From positions 553,794 to 617,793 of the forward strand of contig CAVQNG010000003.1 in assembly GCA_963713825.1 (NCBI GenBank): a stretch of DNA of 64,000 nt. The letters run 5' to 3'. This stretch comes from an uncultured Acidobacteriota bacterium. Lineage in GTDB: Bacteria; Acidobacteriota; Thermoanaerobaculia; Multivoradales; JAHEKO01. Positions 6,798 through 16,755 of this stretch are shown here, in pieces (within the stretch, counting starts at the first letter, position 1; every line of letters starts with the position of its first letter). Both the position numbers and the translations under genes were made by a program. Below the pieces are notes generated by a model. The model worked only from the letters and a program-made list of their open reading frames with translations, was not told the origin of the DNA and did no database searches.

Positions 6798-8426
6798 GTG
6801 GACATCGAAGGTAGCAAGGTACTCGTCCTGGGCGGCTATGGCCTGGTGGGGATGGCGGTCTGCCGGGAGTTGTTGGAGCACAAGCCGCGAGAGATCCAGA
6901 TCCACAGCCTGCGGCAGGAAGAATCGGCAGAGGCTCGTGAGCTGCTGACGCCGTTTGCGGAAGGCGTCAAGCTCTCGATCTCGAGTGGCGACATCTTCGG
7001 ACTTGCCGAAGAAGCCTCCAGAATAGAGCGCATCGCGGCTCAGCTGAGCCCCCTTCGCGACTCGGATTGGGGAAGGTTCCTGCTGTACCGGTTGCTGGTC
7101 GATGGCAAGCCGGACATCGTGATCGATTCCGTCAACACCGCGACTGGCATCGCTTACAGGGACGTCTATTCGGCCTCGGCAAAGGTGCTGAAAAGCCTGG
7201 AAGCCGGCAGCTCGCAGTGCGATCAGGTCGAGGATCTGCTCGAAGCCCTCTATGTGCCGCGACTGATCCGCCACATGCAGCTCCTGTATGGAGGCATGAT
7301 CGACGCCGGTACTCGTGCCTATTTCAAGGTGGGGACCAGCGGCACGGGTGGCATGGGCCTCAATGTTCCCTACACCCATTCCGAAGAGAAGCCGAGCCGT
7401 GTTCTGCTCTCCAAGAGCGCCATGGCGGGAGCCCAGTCCATGTTGCTGTTTCTCATGGCCCGCACGCCGGGAGCTCCCATCACCAAGGAGATCAAGCCGG
7501 CGGCCGCTATCGCCTGGAAGAAGATCGACCACGGGCCCATCTACCGTGGACGAAAGCCCATCTACATCATGGAGGCCACCCCCCAGACCCTGGGCGAAAC
7601 CTTCTCAACCAACGATCCGACGGCAGCCAAGGCCACCGAGAGCATTCTCGAGACGGCCTACATCGATACCGGTGAGAACGGCATCTTCAGCGTCGAGGAG
7701 TTCGCGATGCTCACCACGTCTCGACAGATGGAGTTCGTGACGCCCGAAGAGATCGCTCAGTACCTCATCTTCGAGATCGGCGGGGGCAACACGGGGCACG
7801 ACGTCATCAACGCACTGGACAACGCGGTACTGGGTCCCACCTATCGGGCCGGTCTCATGCGCCATTGGGCTCTGGAACGAATGATGGAGTTCGAAGCGCA
7901 GGGCAAAACCAAGAGCGTCGCTTTCGAGATGCTGGGGCCGCCACGCAACACCAAGCTGCTCTTCGAGGCTCACCTCCTCCGAGAGGCGTTCGTCACGATG
8001 ACGGCTGTTCGCGAAGCGACCCCGGACGAAGTTGTCGAGAAGATAGAAACGATGCTTCGGGAAGAGCCGCGGCTTGCCAACGAAGTGGTCTCGGTTGGTA
8101 TTCCCATCCTCTTGTCTTCAGGCGAGATCCTGCGGGGCCAGGAGGTCATCGTGCCAGCCGAGGCGGACCACGAGCCGATCACCCCCGAGAAGCTGGAAGC
8201 CTGGGTGCACGACGGGTGGGTCGACTTGCGGCGCGAGAACTGCGCCAGTTGGATCGATCGGATGCAGCGTATCCACGACGACACGGCGGCCATTCCCAAG
8301 GACGACACCTCGAGTCGCCATTTGCGGAATGTCAGGTTCTGGGACGAGGAGAAGAGGATTCAGCCCGGCAAGATCCTGGGGTGGATTCTCTCAGTCGAGG
8401 AGCACGGCGCCCGCTTCAAGCACTGA
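6798..8426 (+). CDS. Uncharacterised 542-aa protein with N-terminal Rossmann NAD(P)-binding fold
   Basis: GTG start with GAGGAG RBS 7 nt upstream. VLVLGGYGLVG glycine-rich dinucleotide-binding motif. The rest matches no family I recognise. Same strand, 80 nt downstream of pckG. Confidence 0.7.
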   Translation: MDIEGSKVLVLGGYGLVGMAVCRELLEHKPREIQIHSLRQEESAEARELLTPFAEGVKLSISSGDIFGLAEEASRIERIAAQLSPLRDSDWGRFLLYRLLVDGKPDIVIDSVNTATGIAYRDVYSASAKVLKSLEAGSSQCDQVEDLLEALYVPRLIRHMQLLYGGMIDAGTRAYFKVGTSGTGGMGLNVPYTHSEEKPSRVLLSKSAMAGAQSMLLFLMARTPGAPITKEIKPAAAIAWKKIDHGPIYRGRKPIYIMEATPQTLGETFSTNDPTAAKATESILETAYIDTGENGIFSVEEFAMLTTSRQMEFVTPEEIAQYLIFEIGGGNTGHDVINALDNAVLGPTYRAGLMRHWALERMMEFEAQGKTKSVAFEMLGPPRNTKLLFEAHLLREAFVTMTAVREATPDEVVEKIETMLREEPRLANEVVSVGIPILLSSGEILRGQEVIVPAEADHEPITPEKLEAWVHDGWVDLRRENCASWIDRMQRIHDDTAAIPKDDTSSRHLRNVRFWDEEKRIQPGKILGWILSVEEHGARFKH

Positions 8427-9943: not shown

Positions 9944-12900
9944 TCAGGGATTCACGAGCTTCACCCAATTGCGCATTGCACCCAAACTGCAGCCGAACTT
10001 CTCGTGGCCTTTGCCCAGATGCTGCGCCTCGATGATCTGCTCGCAAGAGCAGCCCCCTGTGTCACCCACCGTGAAGAAATCGGTGGGGCCACTCTGGAGC
10101 CGCCTCTGGTTACCACGGCCACCGGGGGCCGTCGTATCGAACACCCCGTCCTCATCCACCAGCGCGTACCGATTGACTCCCAGACGATCCGTCGGTACCG
10201 ACTCCGGAATCACCGTCGCCGGACAGACATCCACGTCATCGGGCACCCCGTCGTTGTCAGCATCGCTGGCCACGAAGAGAACAAGCCCGTCGTGATCGGA
10301 TGAGCGCAGGGGCGTCGTGTCGTCGTTGATCAGATCGACGAAGGCGTCGGCGTTGCCACGACCGAACTCCAGACCAGCCAGGAAGTCGTCCAACCCTTCA
10401 CTCGTCAGCGCATGGTCGAGGGCTTGACCGTTCCCAGTGAAGATGTAGGAGTAACGTTCCGCCTGATCCAGTTTCGCTGTCTGATTCGTCAGATCGGGCT
10501 CCACCAGATCAGCGCATGGGTTCGTGTCGCAGACGAGATTGTCGGCTGGCTCGAAGTCACCCACGATCTGGCCGACTGCGTCGACGTACCCGTCGGTGAA
10601 TTCAAAAGCGTTGTAGTCACCGATCACCACCAGGTGCACTTCAGGGTTCGCCGACTGCAGGGCCTGGACCTTCTCGGCAATGGACTGGGCCTGTTCGTAG
10701 CGCTTCTGCCTTACCCTCTCGCCACCGCTTGGATCATCGATCCCACCCAGGGAACGATTGTGGACCGTCATGACCGCAATGGAGAACGACCCAAACTCGA
10801 GCTCGAAAGCACCCTCGAGTAGCAAAGGTGGACGATCGTGCAGTAGCGAGCCGTCATAACTCAAGATCTCGTCCTCGCCGAGTTGGGTGATCTGGTCAAT
10901 CGTCACTGTGTCACGCACCATGAAGCCGACATCGATGCCGCCAACGTCGTTGCCCTCGATCAGGATCGGCGTGTAGATCACAGACGAATCCTCGAAAGCG
11001 ATGTCCACGGCCAGGTCCTCGAGGACCTCGATTTTCTCCGCCTCCTGGACAGCCAAGACATCGGGGGCATCGAGAACGTCGAGGATGTAGTCGACAAACT
11101 TGGCCTTCCGTCCGAAGTACTCGGCATTGTCGAAGAAACGCAACATGTTCAAGCTGCCCACTGTAAATTCTCCTGCCGCGCGCGCTCTGACCGGGCGCAA
11201 CACATCCGGCACCGGCCCCACCGACATCATCTTGGGTACAACCTTGTATCGACCGAAGGTGAAGTTCAGGGGGCCATAGCCCGAAATCGCCTGGCCGGCG
11301 AATACGGGGTCGGAGATGCCATCCAGGCCATCCGTGTCGACGTCGAAGACTTCGGGGTTTCCATCCCAGACGGGAAGATCTGATAGGCCCGGAAAGATGA
11401 TGCCGGGCTCTCGGAAGGGCCGCGGATTATCGACAACGAGACTGACCTCGCCGAACCGATTCGTCGGCCCTGAAGCGATGCCATCGAAGCTGACCAGCAT
11501 ACCCTCGAATCGCTCGAGATCCGGAACCGGAAACGGCTGGTCCGAAGGTGTCGTCGCATCGAACGGAGTTACTGTAGGCAGGGGTTCGCCGCCCCCCAGG
11601 ATGTCCACAGTTGGCGAGTCCGTGATCTCCGTCAGTTCGAAGTACTCCTGCACCCGCCCAATGACTCGTACGCGGTCTCCAATAGAGACCATTGGTGGGT
11701 CCACGCCCGTGTAGACGTAGATACCGTCCGAGGTATAGGGATCATCATCGCTGTCTGCGTCAGGTGTCTGCATGTAAAAGCTGCGAAAGGCCACTGCTGT
11801 GACCACGTTTTCGGTTGTCTTGACTTCCATGCCCTCATAGGGCGAGTAGAGGCCATCGCCCTGGATCTCCCAGATCTCCACCGTCGGGGGTCCCGGCGGT
11901 GGCTCGACTCCAGAGGTGACCATGAGGTTCTGAAAGGCGATGGCCTCCGAGCCACCATCGGTATTCGCCGTCAGGATCAGGGTGAGCGTTGAGCCGGTGC
12001 CCGTGAGCGGCGCGTAGAACGGGGCCATGTCATTGTTCAGCAGGTCTCCGTTCACCAGCATCGGGTCACTTAGGGTGACGATCGCACCGCCCTCCATCGT
12101 GTAGTCCTGCGAGGCATCCTCGTCGATCGAGCTCTGAAACGCCGTCTGTACCGCGCCACCGTCGATGCTGTAGCTCCAGTTAAAGAAATCATTCGCCGCC
12201 TCGAAGTCCCCCATCGCTCCCATGTCGATCGACAGCCCGAGATCCGACGCACCATAGATGTCGAAGACCCAGGTCGCAACTACGTCACGACCCGAGGTGT
12301 CGCCATTATTCGTGTCGACAATCCCGAAGAACTCGTCCGTATTCCCTGTCTTGATGATGCCGAGCGTATCCCCCGGGAAGGAGCCCGCAGAGTCGTCCAC
12401 CACCGCAAAAGGAATCGACGCCGATACTCCCCGCTGGAACTTGTTGAAACCATCCCCGGCAGAGGTGAACGGAATTGCCGGGTCGTCCGTAAACGACAAC
12501 AGGTTCTGCGACGCCGAGCTCACCATGTCAAAAGCGATGACTGTCGGTGGCGGTGGTGGCCCGACTCCCGCGGTGATGACGAGGTTCTGAAAGGCGATCG
12601 CCTCCGAGCCACCATCGGTGTTCGCCGTCAGGACCAACGTCAGCTGCGAACCGGTTCCCGAGAGAGCCGTGAAAAACGGGGTCAGGTTATTCGTCAGCAA
12701 CACCCCATTCATCAACATCGGATCACTTAGGGTGACGATCGCACCGCCCTCCATGGTGTAGTCCTGCGAGGCATCCTCGTCGATCGAGCTCTGAAACGCC
12801 GTCACTGCCGGACTGCCGTCGATGCTGTAGCTCCAGTTGAAGAAATCATTCGCCGCCTCGAAGTCCCCCATCGCTCCCATGTCGATCGACAGCCCGAGAT

Positions 12901-13936
12901 CCGACGCTCCACTGATATCGAAGACCCAGGTCGCAATTACGTCACGACCCGAGGTGTCGCCATTATTCGTGTCGACAATCCCGAAGAACTCGTCCGTATT
13001 ACCTGTCTTGATAATGCCCAGCGTATCCCCTGGGAAGGAGCCCGCAGAGTCGTCCACCACCGCAAAAGGAATCGACGCCGATACTCCCCGCTGGAACTTG
13101 TTGAAACCATCCCCGGCAGAGGTGAACGGAATCGCCGGGTCGTCCGTGAACGACAACAGGTTCTGCGACGTCGAGCCCACCATGTCGTAGGCAACCGCCA
13201 TCGGCACAGCAGTACTGACGATGAGGTTCTGGAAGGCGATCGCCTCCGAACCACCATCGGTGTTCGCCGTCAGGACCAACGTCAGCTGCGAACCGGTTCC
13301 CGAGAGAGCCGTGAAAAACGGGGTCAGGTTATTCGTCAGCAACACCCCATTCATCAACATCGGATCACTTAGGGTGACGATCGCACCGCCCTCCATGGTG
13401 TAGTCCTGCGAGGCATCCTCGTCGATCGAGCTCTGAAACGCCGTCACTGCCGGACTGCCGTCGATGCTGTAGCTCCAGTTGAAGAAATCATTCGCCGCCT
13501 CGAAGTCCCCCATCGCTCCCATGTCGATCGACAGCCCGAGATCCGACGCTCCACTGATATCGAAGACCCAGGTCGCAATTACGTCACGACCCGAGGTGTC
13601 GCCATTATTCGTGTCGACAATCCCGAAGAACTCGTCCGTATTACCTGTCTTGATAATGCCCAGCGTATCCCCTGGGAAGGAGCCCGCAGAGTCGTCCACC
13701 ACCGCAAAAGGAATCGACGCCGATACTCCCCGCTGGAACTTGTTGAAACCATCCCCGGCAGAGGTGAACGGAATCGCCGGGTCGTCCGTGAACGACAACA
13801 GGTTCTGCGACGTCGAGCCCACCATGTCGTAGGCAACGACCTGAGCCTCCGACGCGGTCGGTAGAGCCAGCAGTAATGCCATCAAGGCCAAGAACAGAGT
13901 GGAAACCGAAACAAACCTCGAGGTCTTTGCGAGCAT
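9944..13936 (-). CDS. Secreted extracellular nuclease, COG2374/ExeM-NucH-like. Order is signal peptide, 3 tandem ~214-aa domains of unknown function, OB-like module, EEP (endonuclease/exonuclease/phosphatase) domain and a Cys-containing C-terminal tail.
   Basis: Start MLAKTSRF... with GGAGGAG RBS. Signal peptide ...ALPTASEA. Three repeats each beginning AYDMVGSTSQNLLSFTDDPAIPF. COG2374-like block FRSFYMQTPDADSDDDPYTSDGIYVYTG...GDRVRVIGRVQEYFELTEI. EEP motifs FTVGSLNMLRFFD and DVLAVQEAE. Confidence 0.85.
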   Translation of the reverse strand: MLAKTSRFVSVSTLFLALMALLLALPTASEAQVVAYDMVGSTSQNLLSFTDDPAIPFTSAGDGFNKFQRGVSASIPFAVVDDSAGSFPGDTLGIIKTGNTDEFFGIVDTNNGDTSGRDVIATWVFDISGASDLGLSIDMGAMGDFEAANDFFNWSYSIDGSPAVTAFQSSIDEDASQDYTMEGGAIVTLSDPMLMNGVLLTNNLTPFFTALSGTGSQLTLVLTANTDGGSEAIAFQNLIVSTAVPMAVAYDMVGSTSQNLLSFTDDPAIPFTSAGDGFNKFQRGVSASIPFAVVDDSAGSFPGDTLGIIKTGNTDEFFGIVDTNNGDTSGRDVIATWVFDISGASDLGLSIDMGAMGDFEAANDFFNWSYSIDGSPAVTAFQSSIDEDASQDYTMEGGAIVTLSDPMLMNGVLLTNNLTPFFTALSGTGSQLTLVLTANTDGGSEAIAFQNLVITAGVGPPPPPTVIAFDMVSSASQNLLSFTDDPAIPFTSAGDGFNKFQRGVSASIPFAVVDDSAGSFPGDTLGIIKTGNTDEFFGIVDTNNGDTSGRDVVATWVFDIYGASDLGLSIDMGAMGDFEAANDFFNWSYSIDGGAVQTAFQSSIDEDASQDYTMEGGAIVTLSDPMLVNGDLLNNDMAPFYAPLTGTGSTLTLILTANTDGGSEAIAFQNLMVTSGVEPPPGPPTVEIWEIQGDGLYSPYEGMEVKTTENVVTAVAFRSFYMQTPDADSDDDPYTSDGIYVYTGVDPPMVSIGDRVRVIGRVQEYFELTEITDSPTVDILGGGEPLPTVTPFDATTPSDQPFPVPDLERFEGMLVSFDGIASGPTNRFGEVSLVVDNPRPFREPGIIFPGLSDLPVWDGNPEVFDVDTDGLDGISDPVFAGQAISGYGPLNFTFGRYKVVPKMMSVGPVPDVLRPVRARAAGEFTVGSLNMLRFFDNAEYFGRKAKFVDYILDVLDAPDVLAVQEAEKIEVLEDLAVDIAFEDSSVIYTPILIEGNDVGGIDVGFMVRDTVTIDQITQLGEDEILSYDGSLLHDRPPLLLEGAFELEFGSFSIAVMTVHNRSLGGIDDPSGGERVRQKRYEQAQSIAEKVQALQSANPEVHLVVIGDYNAFEFTDGYVDAVGQIVGDFEPADNLVCDTNPCADLVEPDLTNQTAKLDQAERYSYIFTGNGQALDHALTSEGLDDFLAGLEFGRGNADAFVDLINDDTTPLRSSDHDGLVLFVASDADNDGVPDDVDVCPATVIPESVPTDRLGVNRYALVDEDGVFDTTAPGGRGNQRRLQSGPTDFFTVGDTGGCSCEQIIEAQHLGKGHEKFGCSLGAMRNWVKLVNP
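11964..13848. repeat. Intragenic tandem triplication with a 642-bp period. Units 12581-13222 and 13223-13864 are ~99% identical; unit 11964-12580 is diverged.
   Basis: Identical antisense ORFs at 12837..13190 and 13479..13832 (offset 642). Direct alignment of 12581-13206 against 13223-13848 shows only a few mismatches. The third copy from ~11964 is about 85% similar. Confidence 0.9.
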
Positions 13937-14180
13937 CACCATTCTCCTCCCAGGCATGCAAATGGATGGATACCAGCCAGAGACACGCCTCCCGTGTACA
14001 TGTCCTCGTACCGGGTGGCCTCCATGCCTGTCTCCCTCCAGACATTGCTCACCTGCGCTGCGGGTGAGCGGATTCCAGGTGTACTACTAACTTAGCCCAC
14101 CCAGCGAAGGAGTCAAGCAGGTATTGACACTTGTCTATGGGTCTTCCTCGCGTCGACACGCCGGCAAGGGAACACTCCCT

Positions 14181-14345
14181 CCCAATCGTCCAGAGGCGTG
14201 GGTCTTGGGGTTGAAGCGTCCGGTCGTCCCACCCGGCCGGTCCTTGAGGGCTTGAGGTTGAAGAGCCCGTCGTCCCTCCGGCCTACCTTTGAGGCAGTGG
14301 GTCTCCCTCCCGTTTTCCTAAGCCCTTAGGCCCCTACGCCCTTAT
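14181..14345. repeat. Composite GC-rich intergenic repeat, same module order as 63075..63252
   Basis: GGTTGAAGCGTCCGGTCGTCCCACCCGGCCGG, TGAGGGCTTGAGGTTGAAG, TTGAGGCAGTGGGTC and CCTAAGCCCTTAGGCCCCTACGCCCTTA. Confidence 0.75.
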
Positions 14346-14364
14346 TGCCTTCAGCGGTGCCAGA

Positions 14365-14546
14365 GGTTCGTCCCGGGGCCTCTCGACAAGCGCAGCGCAA
14401 GAGCCATGGCAATGCTAGACAGATCCGGTTCGCAGGTGGCGGCCCGCCCTTGAAGTAGGGGAGGGGCTTGCCCCCTCCCACTGGAGCCCTCAAGGGGCTC
14501 CCCTACATTGCCGACGCCGTCCCCCTGCGAGCCACCCGGACGGATC
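14365..14546 (+). mobile_element. MITE-like non-coding element with imperfect terminal inverted repeats (copy 1 of 3)
   Basis: Starts GGTTCGTCCCGGGG and ends GAGCCACCCGGACGGATC. Internal CTCGACAAGCGCAGCGCAAGAGCC, GCAGGTGGCGGCC and GCCGACGCCGTCCCCC are shared with 63253..63412 (same orientation) and 51899..52058 (reverse orientation). No ORF. Confidence 0.6.
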
Positions 14547-14631
14547 TCAATTCGAGAACGGCCCCGAGACACTGAATAAGAGAACGGCCGGCAGGGGCGC
14601 CGGCCGCTTGAGGATTCTCACGTATGTGATG

Positions 14632-15023: not shown

Positions 15024-15752
15024 CTAGTTGCTGTCACTGTAGTTGACCATGGCCTGCGTCCCGTCGTCGGTAGCAGAGATGATCACCATTACCGTGCGAT
15101 CCTCAGTCTCTTGGGAAGCGATGACCTGGCCACCCTTGCCGTCGGGTCCCGAGTACTCGGTCTTCTGGACGCTCCACTCGTCGTCTTCGAGCTGCTCGAC
15201 GTAGAAAGCCAGCACGTCATCCACCGATTCCGAGGTGGTCAGTTGGAACGATCCACCCACGCCGTCGGGTGTCGACGCCGAGTAGGTGCCTGTCGTCGTG
15301 CCGCCGGGAAAGACCGGCACCCAATCCGGCAGGCTGTCCATGTCGGAGCTGCCGACTCGCATGGTCTCCCCACCATCCGTCGTCACTGTGAACAGACCCT
15401 CTTCGGGGTCGCCCGAGGCACTGAACTCCATCTCTCCCTCGTCCGTCTCGAAGCTCAGCTTGCCCTTTTCGATGTCGGCGTAGTTGACCGTGATGACCTC
15501 GCCACTGTCCTTCTCGCGAATCGTGATCGTGCCCGCATCCCGATCACTGTCCACGAGCTCGAGATCCGGGTTCATCTTGATCAACATCTCGGCCGCCGCC
15601 TCTGGATTCTCCTGAAAGTCCTCAGCGAAGTCACCGACCTTCTTGGCTACGAAGAAGCCGCTCACCGACACGATGATTGCACACACCACCAGCAGGCCAC
15701 CGCAGCCAATCGCCACCCAGGCCCACGGGCTCAGACCTTTCTTTTCGGTCAT
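15024..15752 (-). CDS. Membrane-anchored acidic periplasmic protein (single N-terminal TM); possible partner of the upstream ECF sigma
   Basis: Start MTEKKGLSPWAWVAIGCGGLLVVCAIIVSV (TM), then a D/E/T/G-rich soluble domain. Lies 137 nt downstream of the ECF sigma on the same strand. Confidence 0.6.
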   Translation of the reverse strand: MTEKKGLSPWAWVAIGCGGLLVVCAIIVSVSGFFVAKKVGDFAEDFQENPEAAAEMLIKMNPDLELVDSDRDAGTITIREKDSGEVITVNYADIEKGKLSFETDEGEMEFSASGDPEEGLFTVTTDGGETMRVGSSDMDSLPDWVPVFPGGTTTGTYSASTPDGVGGSFQLTTSESVDDVLAFYVEQLEDDEWSVQKTEYSGPDGKGGQVIASQETEDRTVMVIISATDDGTQAMVNYSDSN

Positions 15753-15889
15753 AGGATCTCCTTTCCGCGCTGTCTCTCGAACAGAGACAAAAACTACCAC
15801 AGCCCCGTCTCGGTCCCGCCTGACGGTGAACTGGGATCGGTGGAACCGCCAGAGGCAACTGGAGCCTTCAACCTGTCGAGGTCAGGCGG

Positions 15890-16690
15890 TCAGCCCGTCG
15901 ATACCTGGTCGAGGATCGACTTTCGAAGGGACTCCGGGAGTCGATCCAAGTCGAGCTGCCGACAGGCATCGAAGGTCAGGTCGAGCGTCGACATCACCGA
16001 CTTGCAGCGCGAGCAAAGCTCATCGGGAGGGACCGGAAACTCGACCCCTCGATCGAGGGCCTCTTGCTTGGCACTCAGAAGATCCAGGCAGACTTTCTGG
16101 GAGTGATCCGGTGGCGGTGCCGCCCGCTGGGGTAGCGAGTCGGCCAATTCCTTGCGCAGCGCCAAGCGGCCACGGTGAACCCTGGTCTTGACCGTCGCCT
16201 CTTTGAGACCCAGGATGTCGGCGATCTGCGACAGAGACAACTCGGTGATGTCCTTGAGAAGCAGCGGTAGCCGCAGATGAATCGGCAGACTGGCAAGCGC
16301 CTCATCGACGCGCTCCTGAGCCTCCCTACGCAGCTGCTCATCGAGTTGGCTCTCCTCGGGAGAGGGTAGCGTCGCGACCATTGGCTGGCCCGAGGGCAAG
16401 AGCTCCGAGAGCGACTCGACCCTGGCCGGCTCGCCCGACCGCAGCCGATTGCGCCGCTGACAGATTCTCGCCGCGATCGTGTAGAGCCAGCTACTCGGCG
16501 CGGAGCGCCCTTCGAACTGATCCCATTTCCGGAAGGCCTGCAGGAAAGTCTCCTGCACCAGGTCCTCGGCTTCCTCGCTGTTGCCGCAGAGCTTCATCCC
16601 GAGGCCGTACATCCGCCCGCCCTCCTCATCCATGAGGCGTTCGAGAGCCAGATCGCGGGGCTCAGCAGCGAGTGAATCAGTATCCGTCAT
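15890..16690 (-). CDS. ECF-type sigma-70 factor with fused C-terminal Cys/His (zinc-finger, anti-sigma-like) extension. The track start at 16726 is a TTG inside the tRNA terminator; ATG at 16690 is preferred.
   Basis: Sigma region 2 (LVQETFLQAFRKWDQFEGRSAPSSWLYTIAARICQRR) and region 4 (LSLSQIADILGLKEATVKTRVHRGRLALRKEL). About 90 extra C-terminal aa contain H...C...CSRC...C. Confidence 0.8.
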   Translation of the reverse strand: MTDTDSLAAEPRDLALERLMDEEGGRMYGLGMKLCGNSEEAEDLVQETFLQAFRKWDQFEGRSAPSSWLYTIAARICQRRNRLRSGEPARVESLSELLPSGQPMVATLPSPEESQLDEQLRREAQERVDEALASLPIHLRLPLLLKDITELSLSQIADILGLKEATVKTRVHRGRLALRKELADSLPQRAAPPPDHSQKVCLDLLSAKQEALDRGVEFPVPPDELCSRCKSVMSTLDLTFDACRQLDLDRLPESLRKSILDQVSTG

Positions 16691-16715
16691 GGGATTGGAA
16701 TCAGTCGGCCCAGGT

Positions 16716-16755
16716 CGAAAAAGCAACTGGCCGCCGGAGATAGCCCGGCGGCCAG
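16716..16755 (-). terminator. Rho-independent terminator downstream of tRNA-Asn
   Basis: Stem CTGGCCGCCGG / CCGGCGGCCAG (11 bp, loop AGATAGC) followed on the minus strand by TTGCTTTTTCG. Confidence 0.55.

What the first reader, a model, noticed from the sequence alone, without database searches (positions are those of the whole stretch)
9944..13936. 1,330-aa secreted COG2374/EEP nuclease with an unrecognised triplicated N-terminal domain and a Cys-containing C-terminal tail
Domain order is signal peptide, 3 x ~214-aa domain (consensus AYDMVGSTSQNLLSFTDDPAIPFTSAGDGFNKFQRG...TANTDGGSEAIAFQNL), COG2374-type OB-like module, EEP catalytic domain, and a ~100-aa tail (...GGCSCEQIIEAQHLGKGHEKFGCSLGAMRNWVKLVNP). 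The repeated domain matches no family I can name and could be a carbohydrate- or DNA-binding module. Extracellular nucleases of this class act in eDNA turnover, phosphate scavenging and biofilm remodelling. The tail does not match PEP-CTERM or GlyGly-CTERM sorting signals I know.
Basis: partly seen in the sequence, partly recalled or inferred. Interest (0 to 1): 0.5.

Follow-up and report, generated by a model that had tools for sequence, protein, structure and literature searches.

The report
Secreted DNase with two unnamed add-on domains
This gene encodes a large secreted DNA-cutting enzyme of a known type (like ExeM, NucH and SpnA) that carries three copies of an undescribed sugar-binding-like domain and an undescribed cysteine-bridged end domain; both domains prove to be common in sediment and marine bacteria, so the protein is a useful example but not a surprise.

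Summary
Window 9944-13936 (-) encodes a 1,330-aa protein with this order: Sec signal peptide, three ~209-aa repeats, an OB-like module, an EEP catalytic domain with all catalytic motif residues, and a ~105-aa tail with four cysteines.

The nuclease core is a divergent relative of ExeM/NucH nucleases and of S. pyogenes SpnA.

Two copies are the norm. The third copy here is a very recent duplication with a 587-nt exact repeat.

The tail is one thrombospondin type-3 calcium-binding repeat plus a fold with no PDB match. At least 406 clusters carry it, attached to many unrelated extracellular domains. It is sometimes followed by real sorting signals, so it is a domain and not a sorting signal.

Verdict: a new variant of a known kind, of moderate to low interest. 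Host: Thermoanaerobaculia (Acidobacteriota).

The parts
9944..13936 (-). Complete gene: 1,330-aa precursor plus stop codon (9944-9946). Residue numbers in this report use the 1,337-aa ORF from 13957; subtract 7 for the 1,330-aa protein.
   Evidence: ORF list. A 100%-identical 1,330-aa database protein, P0241, lies on a 1.9-Mb contig. Start-codon context.
13944..13951 (-). Shine-Dalgarno GGGAGGAG, 7 nt upstream of the ATG at 13936
   Evidence: Read directly from the sequence.
13844..13936 (-). Sec-type signal peptide (ORF aa 8-38). MLAKTSR is the n-region, FVSVSTLFLALMALLLAL the h-region, and PTASEA|Q the c-region. There is no lipobox Cys.
   Evidence: Inspection of the translation. No signal-peptide predictor was available, so this is inferred.
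13214..13840 (-). Repeat 1 of the undescribed ~209-aa beta-jelly-roll domain (aa 40-248)
   Evidence: Unit HMM E 4.9e-91; repeat analysis.
12572..13195 (-). Repeat 2 (aa 255-462). Its protein sequence is identical to repeat 1 over the 204-aa core.
   Evidence: A 587-nt exact DNA identity links 13251-13837 to 12609-13195.
11915..12541 (-). Repeat 3 (aa 473-681), ~90% identical to repeats 1 and 2. This is the copy that was modelled.
11168..11884 (-). OB-like nucleic-acid-binding module with its linker (aa ~692-930), preceded by a Pro-rich linker
   Evidence: NF033681 ExeM_NucH_DNase profile positions 2-110 match aa 716-826. SpnA chain residues 2-305 align to aa 693-973.
10277..11167 (-). EEP (endonuclease/exonuclease/phosphatase) catalytic domain, aa 931-1227. 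Motif residues: N937, E972, H1066, D1114, N1116, D1181, D1221, H1222.
   Evidence: Scanning the core alone gives PF19580 27.9 bits (cutoff 27) and PF03372 22.7 bits (cutoff 24.5). All eight motif residues are 100% conserved in 78 aligned cores; the adjacent H1182 is 97% conserved.
9947..10276 (-). C-terminal tail module (aa 1228-1337). It is one TSP type-3 Ca-binding repeat (about aa 1230-1253, window 10199-10270), then a hairpin and three short helices. It has four Cys: C1245, C1303, C1305, C1323.
   Evidence: Tail HMM E 7.8e-46. AF2 pLDDT 87.8. TSP_3 23.2 bits, and the profile matches the OmpA TSP3 of 5wtl at E 5.6e-8. There is no PDB fold match for the rest. Cys co-loss pattern.

Best explanation
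The gene encodes an extracellular DNase, dependent on Ca2+ and Mg2+, of the OB-plus-EEP type exemplified by Shewanella ExeM, NucH and S. pyogenes SpnA.

Export: the Sec pathway exports it and signal peptidase I cleaves it after ASEA (inferred).

Catalysis: the OB-like module holds the DNA. The EEP domain cleaves phosphodiester bonds using the canonical Asn/Glu/His/Asp-Asn/Asp/Asp-His set. The residues are shown to be present; the chemistry is inferred from the family.

N-terminal repeats: the three very acidic copies (net charge about -23 each) form a CBM-like jelly-roll with many invariant Asp/Glu. They sit where ExeM has its lamin-tail domain. They most likely act as Ca2+-stabilised binding modules. 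By avidity they would hold the enzyme on a polymeric extracellular target, either matrix or cell-surface polysaccharide or cation-coated particles carrying eDNA. They are unlikely to bind DNA directly (inferred).

Copy number is plastic. Two copies is the usual state, and the third copy here arose by a very recent unequal recombination.

Tail: the C-terminal module is an independent extracellular domain with a TSP3 cap and two disulfides. It most likely retains or attaches the protein at the cell surface or matrix. It is not a sorting signal.

Biological role: eDNA turnover and phosphate or nucleotide scavenging by a sediment Thermoanaerobaculia bacterium.
For: Nuclease identity:
- NF033681 ExeM/NucH, E 3e-32.
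- SpnA structures 9SF8/9SF9, E 1.4e-11, aligned over the OB and nuclease regions.
- EEP Pfam hits.
- The EEP motif residues N937, E972, H1066, D1114, N1116, D1181, D1221 and H1222 are all conserved in 78 orthologous cores.
- ExeM needs its OB and EEP domains plus Ca2+ with Mg2+ or Mn2+, and its N-terminal LTD is dispensable (PMC6085458). SpnA needs Ca2+ and Mg2+ (PMC13601614).

Repeat:
- 14 invariant columns, half of them acidic.
- pI 4.05 and only 4 Lys/Arg per unit.
- Fused to an ExeM/NucH-like core in 67 of 79 species-level genome loci. This includes proteins scoring ~600 bits on NF033681 in Alteromonas, Parahaliea and Halieaceae.
- Interchangeable with LTD: P0409 is 4 x LTD + EEP + tail.
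- Also stand-alone with PEP-CTERM anchors.

Recent duplication:
- 587-nt exact repeat.
- 64 of 120 homologues have 2 units, and only this protein has 3 units plus the tail.
- Several orthologues have 99-100% identical internal units.

Tail:
- 406 clusters at E<=1e-30.
- Within 12 aa of the C-terminus in 108 of 136 proteins. In others it is followed by T9SS Por_Secre_tail or TM+RRRR anchors, and one protein has it in tandem.
- Four Cys in 314 of 323 tails. Cys 3 and Cys 4 are lost only together, 6 of 6 cases.

Host: neighbouring housekeeping proteins fall in >=90%-identity clusters named Thermoanaerobaculia.
Against: - No activity, localisation or ligand has been measured for this clade.
- The nuclease core scores below the curated cut-offs: NF033681 112 bits against 300, and PF19580 25.7 bits against 27 on the full protein. 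It is a divergent subfamily, and other EEP activities (phosphatase, phosphodiesterase) are not formally excluded.
- The CBM-like fold is generic. The same fold mediates protein-protein contacts in MAM and Eph domains, so a sugar ligand is not demonstrated.
- The strong genomic link of the unit to nucleases would also fit a DNA-related role.
- I could not inspect model coordinates. Ca2+ sites and disulfide geometry are therefore inferred from conservation alone.
- The signal peptide was judged by eye.
Confidence: 0.6

Rival explanations
1. The repeats are DNA-handling modules. They would capture eDNA through Ca2+/Mg2+ bridges, giving the nuclease extra substrate affinity or processivity, as extra OB domains do in SpnA. 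The stand-alone PEP-CTERM versions would then be cell-surface eDNA receptors.
For: The unit is fused to an ExeM/NucH-like nuclease core in 67 of 79 genome loci. It sits directly N-terminal to the OB module. In the Phycisphaerales locus L050 a stand-alone unit gene lies next to a separate EEP gene. Removing the LTD from ExeM slows DNA degradation in vitro (PMC6085458).
Against: Each unit has net charge about -23, pI 4.05 and only 4 Lys/Arg, none of them among the conserved columns. The structural neighbours are CBMs and adhesion domains, not nucleic-acid binders. Most stand-alone copies examined have no nuclease neighbour.
Confidence: 0.2
2. The C-terminal tail is a new C-terminal sorting or secretion signal, analogous to a T9SS CTD or to PEP-CTERM, recognised by a dedicated export or anchoring machine.
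For: The tail lies within 12 aa of the C-terminus in 108 of 136 representatives. It is attached to many unrelated extracellular cargo domains, including FG-GAP, LamG, Kelch, beta-helix, LTD-nuclease and DUF642. The family is large.
Against: In 28 of 136 proteins something follows the tail. This includes bona fide sorting signals (Por_Secre_tail in 4, TM+RRRR anchors) and Lcl_C domains, and one protein has two tails in tandem. It is a folded, Ca-binding, disulfide-bonded domain. No partner enzyme was identified.
Confidence: 0.15
3. The third repeat is an assembly artefact. The real gene would have two units, like its relatives.
For: Repeats 1 and 2 share a 587-nt exact identity, and near-identical tandem repeats are hard to assemble. 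The closest relative, P0242 (90% identity), has two units.
Against: Short-read assemblers usually collapse such repeats and do not expand them. The two copies differ at 2-3 positions and have different junction and linker sequences (IVSTAVPMAV against VITAGVGPPPPPTVI). The contig is 1.9 Mb long. An unrelated homologue, P0252, has the same pattern of two 99.5%-identical units plus one divergent unit.
Confidence: 0.07
4. The EEP domain is not a DNase. It would be another EEP-type hydrolase, such as a phosphatase or a phospholipid or sugar-phosphate phosphodiesterase, targeted by CBM-like modules.
For: The core falls below the curated family cut-offs. The EEP superfamily is functionally diverse (established knowledge).
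Against: The OB-like module and the whole core are homologous to ExeM/NucH and SpnA, not to other EEP branches. The clade grades into proteins that pass the ExeM/NucH cut-off and carry the same N-terminal unit.
Confidence: 0.05

Closest known systems
ExeM of Shewanella oneidensis and the ExeM/NucH family (NCBIfam NF033681, COG2374)
   Same: Both are secreted, have an OB-like module followed by an EEP catalytic domain, carry an N-terminal beta-sandwich accessory domain and a C-terminal localisation element, and act on eDNA.
   Different: The core reaches only 112 bits against the 300-bit cut-off. ExeM's LTD is replaced by three copies of an unrelated ~209-aa jelly-roll. ExeM's GlyGly-CTERM/rhombosortase anchor is replaced by a globular TSP3 and 4-Cys domain.
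SpnA of Streptococcus pyogenes (PDB 9SF8/9SF9)
   Same: This is the closest solved structure (E 1.4e-11). Its OB domains precede a DNase I-like EEP nuclease that needs Ca2+ and Mg2+.
   Different: SpnA is LPXTG-anchored to the Gram-positive wall. It has extra OB domains at its N-terminus, not jelly-roll repeats, and it has no TSP3/Cys tail.
Jelly-roll carbohydrate-binding modules (e.g. CBM70, CBM4, CBM22, CBM61) and MAM / Eph ligand-binding domains
   Different: Sequence identity is only 3-12%, and there is no sequence-profile match to any PDB chain or Pfam family. The unit is ~70 residues larger than the aligned core. Its ligand is unknown.
Stand-alone PEP-CTERM surface proteins of ~260 aa (e.g. 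P0119 of Stieleria varia, named only 'PEP-CTERM sorting domain-containing protein')
   Same: They carry the same ~205-aa domain at 41-64% identity, behind a signal peptide.
   Different: They have a single copy, no enzyme, and an exosortase-type PEP-CTERM anchor in place of the nuclease and tail.
Thrombospondin type-3 repeat (PF02412; OmpA TSP3 repeats in PDB 5wtl)
   Same: The first ~24 residues of the tail carry the DxDxDGxxDxxDxC calcium-binding motif.
   Different: There is only one repeat, below the Pfam cut-off (23.2 against 25 bits). The following ~80 residues have no known relative.

Membership tests
ExeM/NucH family extracellular endonuclease (NCBIfam NF033681) | HMM score at or above the curated cut-off of 300 bits | tested here: not met
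   112.1 bits, E 3.2e-32, in two partial stretches. It is homologous but outside the curated family. Relatives with the same N-terminal unit score ~600 bits.
ExeM/NucH family extracellular endonuclease (NCBIfam NF033681) | OB-like module immediately N-terminal to an EEP catalytic domain | tested here: met
   Profile positions 2-110 match aa 716-826. SpnA OB and nuclease residues align to aa 693-973.
ExeM proper (NF033680) | Full-length match (cut-off 1300 bits) with an LTD at the N-terminus and GlyGly-CTERM at the C-terminus | tested here: not met
   53 bits. There is no LTD hit. The C-terminus ends ...WVKLVNP, with no TM helix or basic cluster.
EEP superfamily (Pfam PF03372 / PF19580) | Pfam gathering score | tested here: inconclusive
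   PF19580 scores 25.7 bits on the full protein (cut-off 27) and 27.9 bits on the core alone. PF03372 scores 22.7 bits (cut-off 24.5).
EEP superfamily (Pfam PF03372 / PF19580) | Catalytic motif residues: Asn, metal-binding Glu, His, Asp-x-Asn, Asp, and Ser-Asp-His | tested here: met
   N937, E972, H1066, D1114/N1116, D1181 and D1221/H1222 are present and 100% conserved in 78 orthologous cores.
EEP nucleases | Ca2+/Mg2+-dependent DNase activity | not testable with these tools
   This needs a biochemical assay. It is known for ExeM and SpnA.
Carbohydrate-binding module (jelly-roll, galactose-binding-like fold) for the repeat | Beta-jelly-roll fold | tested here: met
Carbohydrate-binding module (jelly-roll, galactose-binding-like fold) for the repeat | Sequence membership of a described CBM, Pfam or NCBIfam family | tested here: not met
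   No family for the unit in Pfam or NCBIfam. The profile gives no hit against PDB sequences.
Carbohydrate-binding module (jelly-roll, galactose-binding-like fold) for the repeat | Demonstrated glycan binding | not testable with these tools
   This needs glycan arrays, pull-downs or ITC.
Lamin-tail domain (PF00932) for the repeat | Pfam LTD match or LTD-like Ig fold | tested here: not met
C-terminal sorting signals (PEP-CTERM, GlyGly-CTERM, MYXO-CTERM, T9SS CTD) for the tail | Match to a sorting-domain model, or a motif followed by a TM helix and a basic cluster at the extreme C-terminus | tested here: not met
   No such Pfam or NCBIfam hit. Some relatives have real sorting signals downstream of the tail.
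Thrombospondin type-3 repeat (PF02412) for the start of the tail | Pfam gathering score of 25 bits and the DxDxDGxxDxxDxC motif | tested here: inconclusive
   23.2 bits, just below the cut-off. The motif is present and nearly invariant. The profile matches the TSP3 repeat of 5wtl at E 5.6e-8.

The most novel reading that the evidence does not exclude
The ~209-aa unit would be a new Ca2+-dependent binding module specialised for extracellular-DNA foraging. In this reading it recognises eDNA-cation complexes or the matrix or particles that hold eDNA. It would serve both as the targeting arm of a large clade of sediment and marine nucleases and, in its stand-alone PEP-CTERM form, as a cell-surface capture receptor. 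Its copy number would be tuned by concerted evolution. The TSP3/4-Cys tail would be a new, widespread surface-attachment domain.
Probability: 0.15. Interest if true: 0.6.

Novelty: new variant of a known kind. Interest (0 to 1): 0.33.

Why it matters
Extracellular DNA is a major phosphorus, nitrogen and carbon source in sediments (PMC8289736, seen). The nucleases that release it are poorly characterised outside a few model organisms.

This locus is a clean, full-length example of a populous but unstudied clade of ExeM/NucH-like nucleases. It points to two conserved extracellular domain families that current Pfam, NCBIfam and PDB resources do not model. One of them (the tail) is present in at least several hundred 50%-identity clusters.

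Defining what these modules bind would explain how such enzymes are positioned on cells, matrix or particles. It would also improve annotation of thousands of 'hypothetical' secreted proteins.

It does not overturn anything. The value lies in annotation and in providing an experimental handle.

Tried and rejected
- Tandem Repeats Finder missed the repeats because its longest period is 500 nt. The repeat finder and a script recovered them.
- Exact look-ups of the contig failed for the 1,337-aa ORF, the 1,330-aa protein, P0241 and a neighbouring gene. Taxonomy came from cluster names.
- The afdb50 Foldseek library was unavailable.
- The PDB sequence profile search gave nothing for the unit and only the TSP3 match for the tail.
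- No sigma-70-like promoter was found. A terminator-like hairpin follows the upstream pterin dehydratase gene; the other three terminator-like sites lie inside the ORF and the total is what shuffles give. The only Rfam matches in the window are two tRNAs.
- Weak Pfam hits on the full protein (TPR_12, Tox-PAAR-like, RPN2_N) were rejected as noise.
- The NCBIfam PEP-CTERM-family hits on stand-alone unit proteins probably reflect the shared PEP-CTERM segment, since the bare unit hits nothing.
- I considered the tail as a Cys2-His-Cys metal site. I rejected this in favour of two disulfides. Cys 3 and Cys 4 are lost only together, and the His is replaced by Gln in some members.
- Neighbourhoods of stand-alone unit genes gave no consistent nuclease or exopolysaccharide link.

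Full report
OBSERVATION

The minus strand of the window carries a single long ORF, 9944..13957 (1,337 aa from the first ATG). A GGGAGGAG Shine-Dalgarno at 13951-13944 lies 7 nt upstream of that ATG. A public gene call of exactly 1,330 aa, P0241 on a 1.9-Mb contig, is 100% identical. Residue numbers below use the 1,337-aa ORF.

The N-terminus (MLAKTSR, then FVSVSTLFLALMALLLAL, then PTASEA|Q) looks like a Sec signal peptide without a lipobox. I judged this by eye, because no predictor was available.

Three repeats follow, at aa 40-248, 255-462 and 473-681. Each matches a unit HMM at E ~1e-90. The DNA periods are 642 and 657 nt. Repeats 1 and 2 are identical in protein over the 204-aa cores and differ at 2 of 612 nt. 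Repeat 3 is ~90% identical to them.

NUCLEASE CORE

After a Pro-rich linker comes an OB-like module. NCBIfam NF033681 'ExeM/NucH family extracellular endonuclease' matches at E 3.2e-32, and profile positions 2-110 cover aa 716-826. An EEP domain follows. Scanned on the core alone, PF19580 gives 27.9 bits and PF03372 gives 22.7 bits.

The only solved relatives by sequence are 9SF8 and 9SF9 (E 1.4e-11). These are the cryo-EM structures of Streptococcus pyogenes nuclease A. SpnA is an OB-plus-EEP DNase that needs Ca2+ and Mg2+ (PMC13601614).

In an alignment of 78 orthologous cores, the canonical EEP residues are all 100% conserved: N937, E972, H1066, D1114, N1116, D1181, D1221 and H1222. JGI labels many homologues 'predicted extracellular nuclease', which is the COG2374 name.

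For the characterised relative ExeM, the OB-like and EEP regions are essential, the N-terminal lamin-tail domain is largely dispensable, and Ca2+ with Mg2+ or Mn2+ is required (PMC6085458).

The scores here fall below the curated cut-offs (112 against 300 bits). I therefore treat this as a divergent sister clade that works like ExeM/NucH/SpnA, not as a curated member.

THE REPEATED DOMAIN

The unit has no Pfam or NCBIfam family. A 54-sequence profile finds nothing in PDB sequences.

A search with one unit returned 140 proteins. Many are ~260-aa proteins built as signal peptide, one unit, then a PEP-CTERM anchor (PF07589). Their named sources are Gammaproteobacteria, Planctomycetota (including Stieleria varia), Thermoanaerobaculales and others.

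The alignment has 14 invariant columns, half of them Asp or Glu, plus about a dozen more conserved acidic positions and several aromatics. Each unit has pI ~4.05, net charge about -23 and only four Lys/Arg.

The unit is above all a nuclease accessory.
- A genome-wide pattern scan confirmed 172 matches in species-representative genomes.
- Of the 79 best loci, 67 have the unit fused to an ExeM/NucH-like core.
- These include cultured Alteromonas hispanica, Parahaliea mediterranea and a Halieaceae isolate. Their proteins score ~600 bits on NF033681 and have the unit immediately N-terminal to the nuclease.
- It sits where ExeM has its LTD. A sister protein, P0409, is 4 x LTD + EEP + tail, so the two accessory domains are interchangeable.

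Among the 120 best full-length homologues, 64 are two units + core + tail and 13 are one unit + core + tail. Others have 2-3 units with RTX, cadherin-like or IPTL-CTERM C-termini. Only the window's protein has three units plus the tail.

The extra copy is very young. ORF nt 121-707 and nt 763-1349 are identical over 587 nt.

The same signature recurs elsewhere. In P0244, P0245, P0249, P0259 and P0252 the internal units are 99-100% identical to each other, yet only 60-85% identical to units of orthologues. This indicates concerted evolution or recurrent unequal recombination and a plastic copy number.

An assembly artefact is unlikely but not excluded. The two copies differ at 2-3 positions, the flanking linkers differ, the contig is 1.9 Mb long, and P0252 shows the same pattern independently.

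THE TAIL

The last ~105 residues form a conserved module. It begins with a DxDxDGVxDxxDxCP thrombospondin type-3 repeat. TSP_3 scores 23.2 bits, and the profile matches the TSP3 repeat of an OmpA protein, 5wtl, at E 5.6e-8. Then come VIPExVPT..LGxNRxAL.D.D..FDT, a variable Gly/Lys-rich loop, and DTGGCSCEQII....LGxGHxKFGCSxxAM..W.

A trimmed 32-sequence profile was searched against 1.84 billion representatives. It finds 2,788 proteins at E<=1e-3, 1,571 at E<=1e-10 and 406 at E<=1e-30. The weaker tiers include generic TSP3-repeat proteins.

In 108 of 136 full matches the module ends within 12 residues of the C-terminus. In the other 28 it is followed by other elements: T9SS Por_Secre_tail domains, hydrophobic helix plus RRRR anchors, and Lcl_C domains. 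One protein has two tails in tandem.

The upstream partners are diverse extracellular domains: FG-GAP, Laminin_G_3, LTD plus EEP, DUF642, Kelch propellers, P-domain, NosD/beta-helix, DUF7933 and SdrD_B.

The tail is therefore a mobile, folded extracellular domain and not a sorting signal.

Of 323 full-length tails, 314 have all four Cys. Six have lost Cys 3 and Cys 4 together, and none has lost only one of those two. This supports disulfides C1305-C1323 and C1245-C1303.

CONTEXT AND HOST

The gene appears to be its own transcription unit. A terminator-like hairpin (14608-14583) follows the upstream pterin-4a-carbinolamine dehydratase gene.

The neighbours are housekeeping or unrelated genes: PEPCK, an AmmeMemoRadiSam radical-SAM enzyme, an ECF sigma factor, RpoD (assigned by eye from the translation), DnaG and MutS2. 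Their exact sequences sit in >=90%-identity clusters whose named members are 'Thermoanaerobaculia bacterium' MAGs. The host is therefore an Acidobacteriota of class Thermoanaerobaculia.

Homologues come largely from sediment, mud and saline metagenome bins: Woeseiaceae, Anaerolineales, Acidimicrobiia and Zixibacteria.

MECHANISM (COMMITTED VIEW)

What is shown:
- homology and intact catalytic residues of an OB-plus-EEP nuclease;
- a CBM-like fold for the repeats, and their association with nucleases;
- the domain nature and the Cys pattern of the tail.

What is inferred:
- Sec export and release outside the cell;
- Ca2+/Mg2+-dependent DNA cleavage;
- the acidic repeats act as Ca2+-stabilised, multivalent binding modules that hold the enzyme on matrix or surface polysaccharide or on cation-coated particles carrying eDNA;
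- the tail acts as a Ca2+- and disulfide-stabilised attachment module.

I give about 0.85 to 'extracellular DNase'. I give about 0.4-0.45 to the anchoring role of the repeats, against 0.2 for cation-bridged DNA binding.

NOVELTY AND VERDICT

The enzyme class is known. The exact architecture is already abundant in databases, unnamed or labelled 'predicted extracellular nuclease'. Two of its modules are not described in Pfam (2025 copy), NCBIfam 20.0 or the PDB.

I rate it a new variant of a known kind, with interest ~0.33. It is worth a domain-family description and a binding experiment, but it would not surprise a specialist.

Noticed in passing
window 14204-14294 (in the 675-nt intergenic region 13958-14631 upstream of the nuclease gene): An imperfect 45-nt tandem repeat of 2.0 copies with 78% matches. 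The leader or intergenic region is unusually long and G+C-rich. It has no sigma-70-like promoter match and no Rfam family.
   Followed up: partly
Proteins P0244, P0245, P0249, P0259 and P0252 (homologues): The tandem units within one protein are 99-100% identical, while units of orthologues are only 60-85% identical. This is a signature of concerted evolution or recurrent unequal recombination, with copy number varying from 1 to 3.
   Followed up: partly
L073:5608-10222, L036:2352-6991, L045:2019-5219: In three Gammaproteobacteria MAGs the stand-alone unit gene lies between an unannotated 235-291-aa ORF and an M20 peptidase gene. In L073 and L036 a ToxR-like Trans_reg_C regulator lies further upstream; in L045 that position was not scanned.
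   Followed up: partly
L050:6503-8711 (Phycisphaerales MAG): A separate 409-aa EEP-family gene (PF03372, 89.7 bits) lies immediately upstream of a stand-alone PEP-CTERM unit gene. This may be a split version of the fusion. Only one case was seen.
   Followed up: no
window 6798-8426 (+): A 542-aa ORF between the PEPCK and AmmeMemoRadiSam genes has no Pfam family at E<=1e-5. Accession numbering of relatives suggests that a gene is conserved at this position in related Thermoanaerobaculia MAGs.
   Followed up: no
window 15024-16726 (-): An ECF-type sigma factor (278 aa, with a Cys-containing C-terminal extension) is followed by a 258-aa predicted membrane or secreted protein. That protein has no Pfam hit, and its exact sequence is not in the protein collection.
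   Followed up: no
Proteins P0362, P0423 and P0451 (tail family): In these proteins the tail module is not C-terminal. It precedes Lcl_C/DUF1566-like domains, and P0362 has two tails in tandem. The module therefore also works as an internal domain.
   Followed up: partly
window 10513-10530 (ORF aa 1143-1148, NLVCDTNPCADL in the EEP domain): Two further Cys lie five residues apart in an EEP surface insertion. They may form a small disulfide loop. They are not among the >=97% conserved positions.
   Followed up: no
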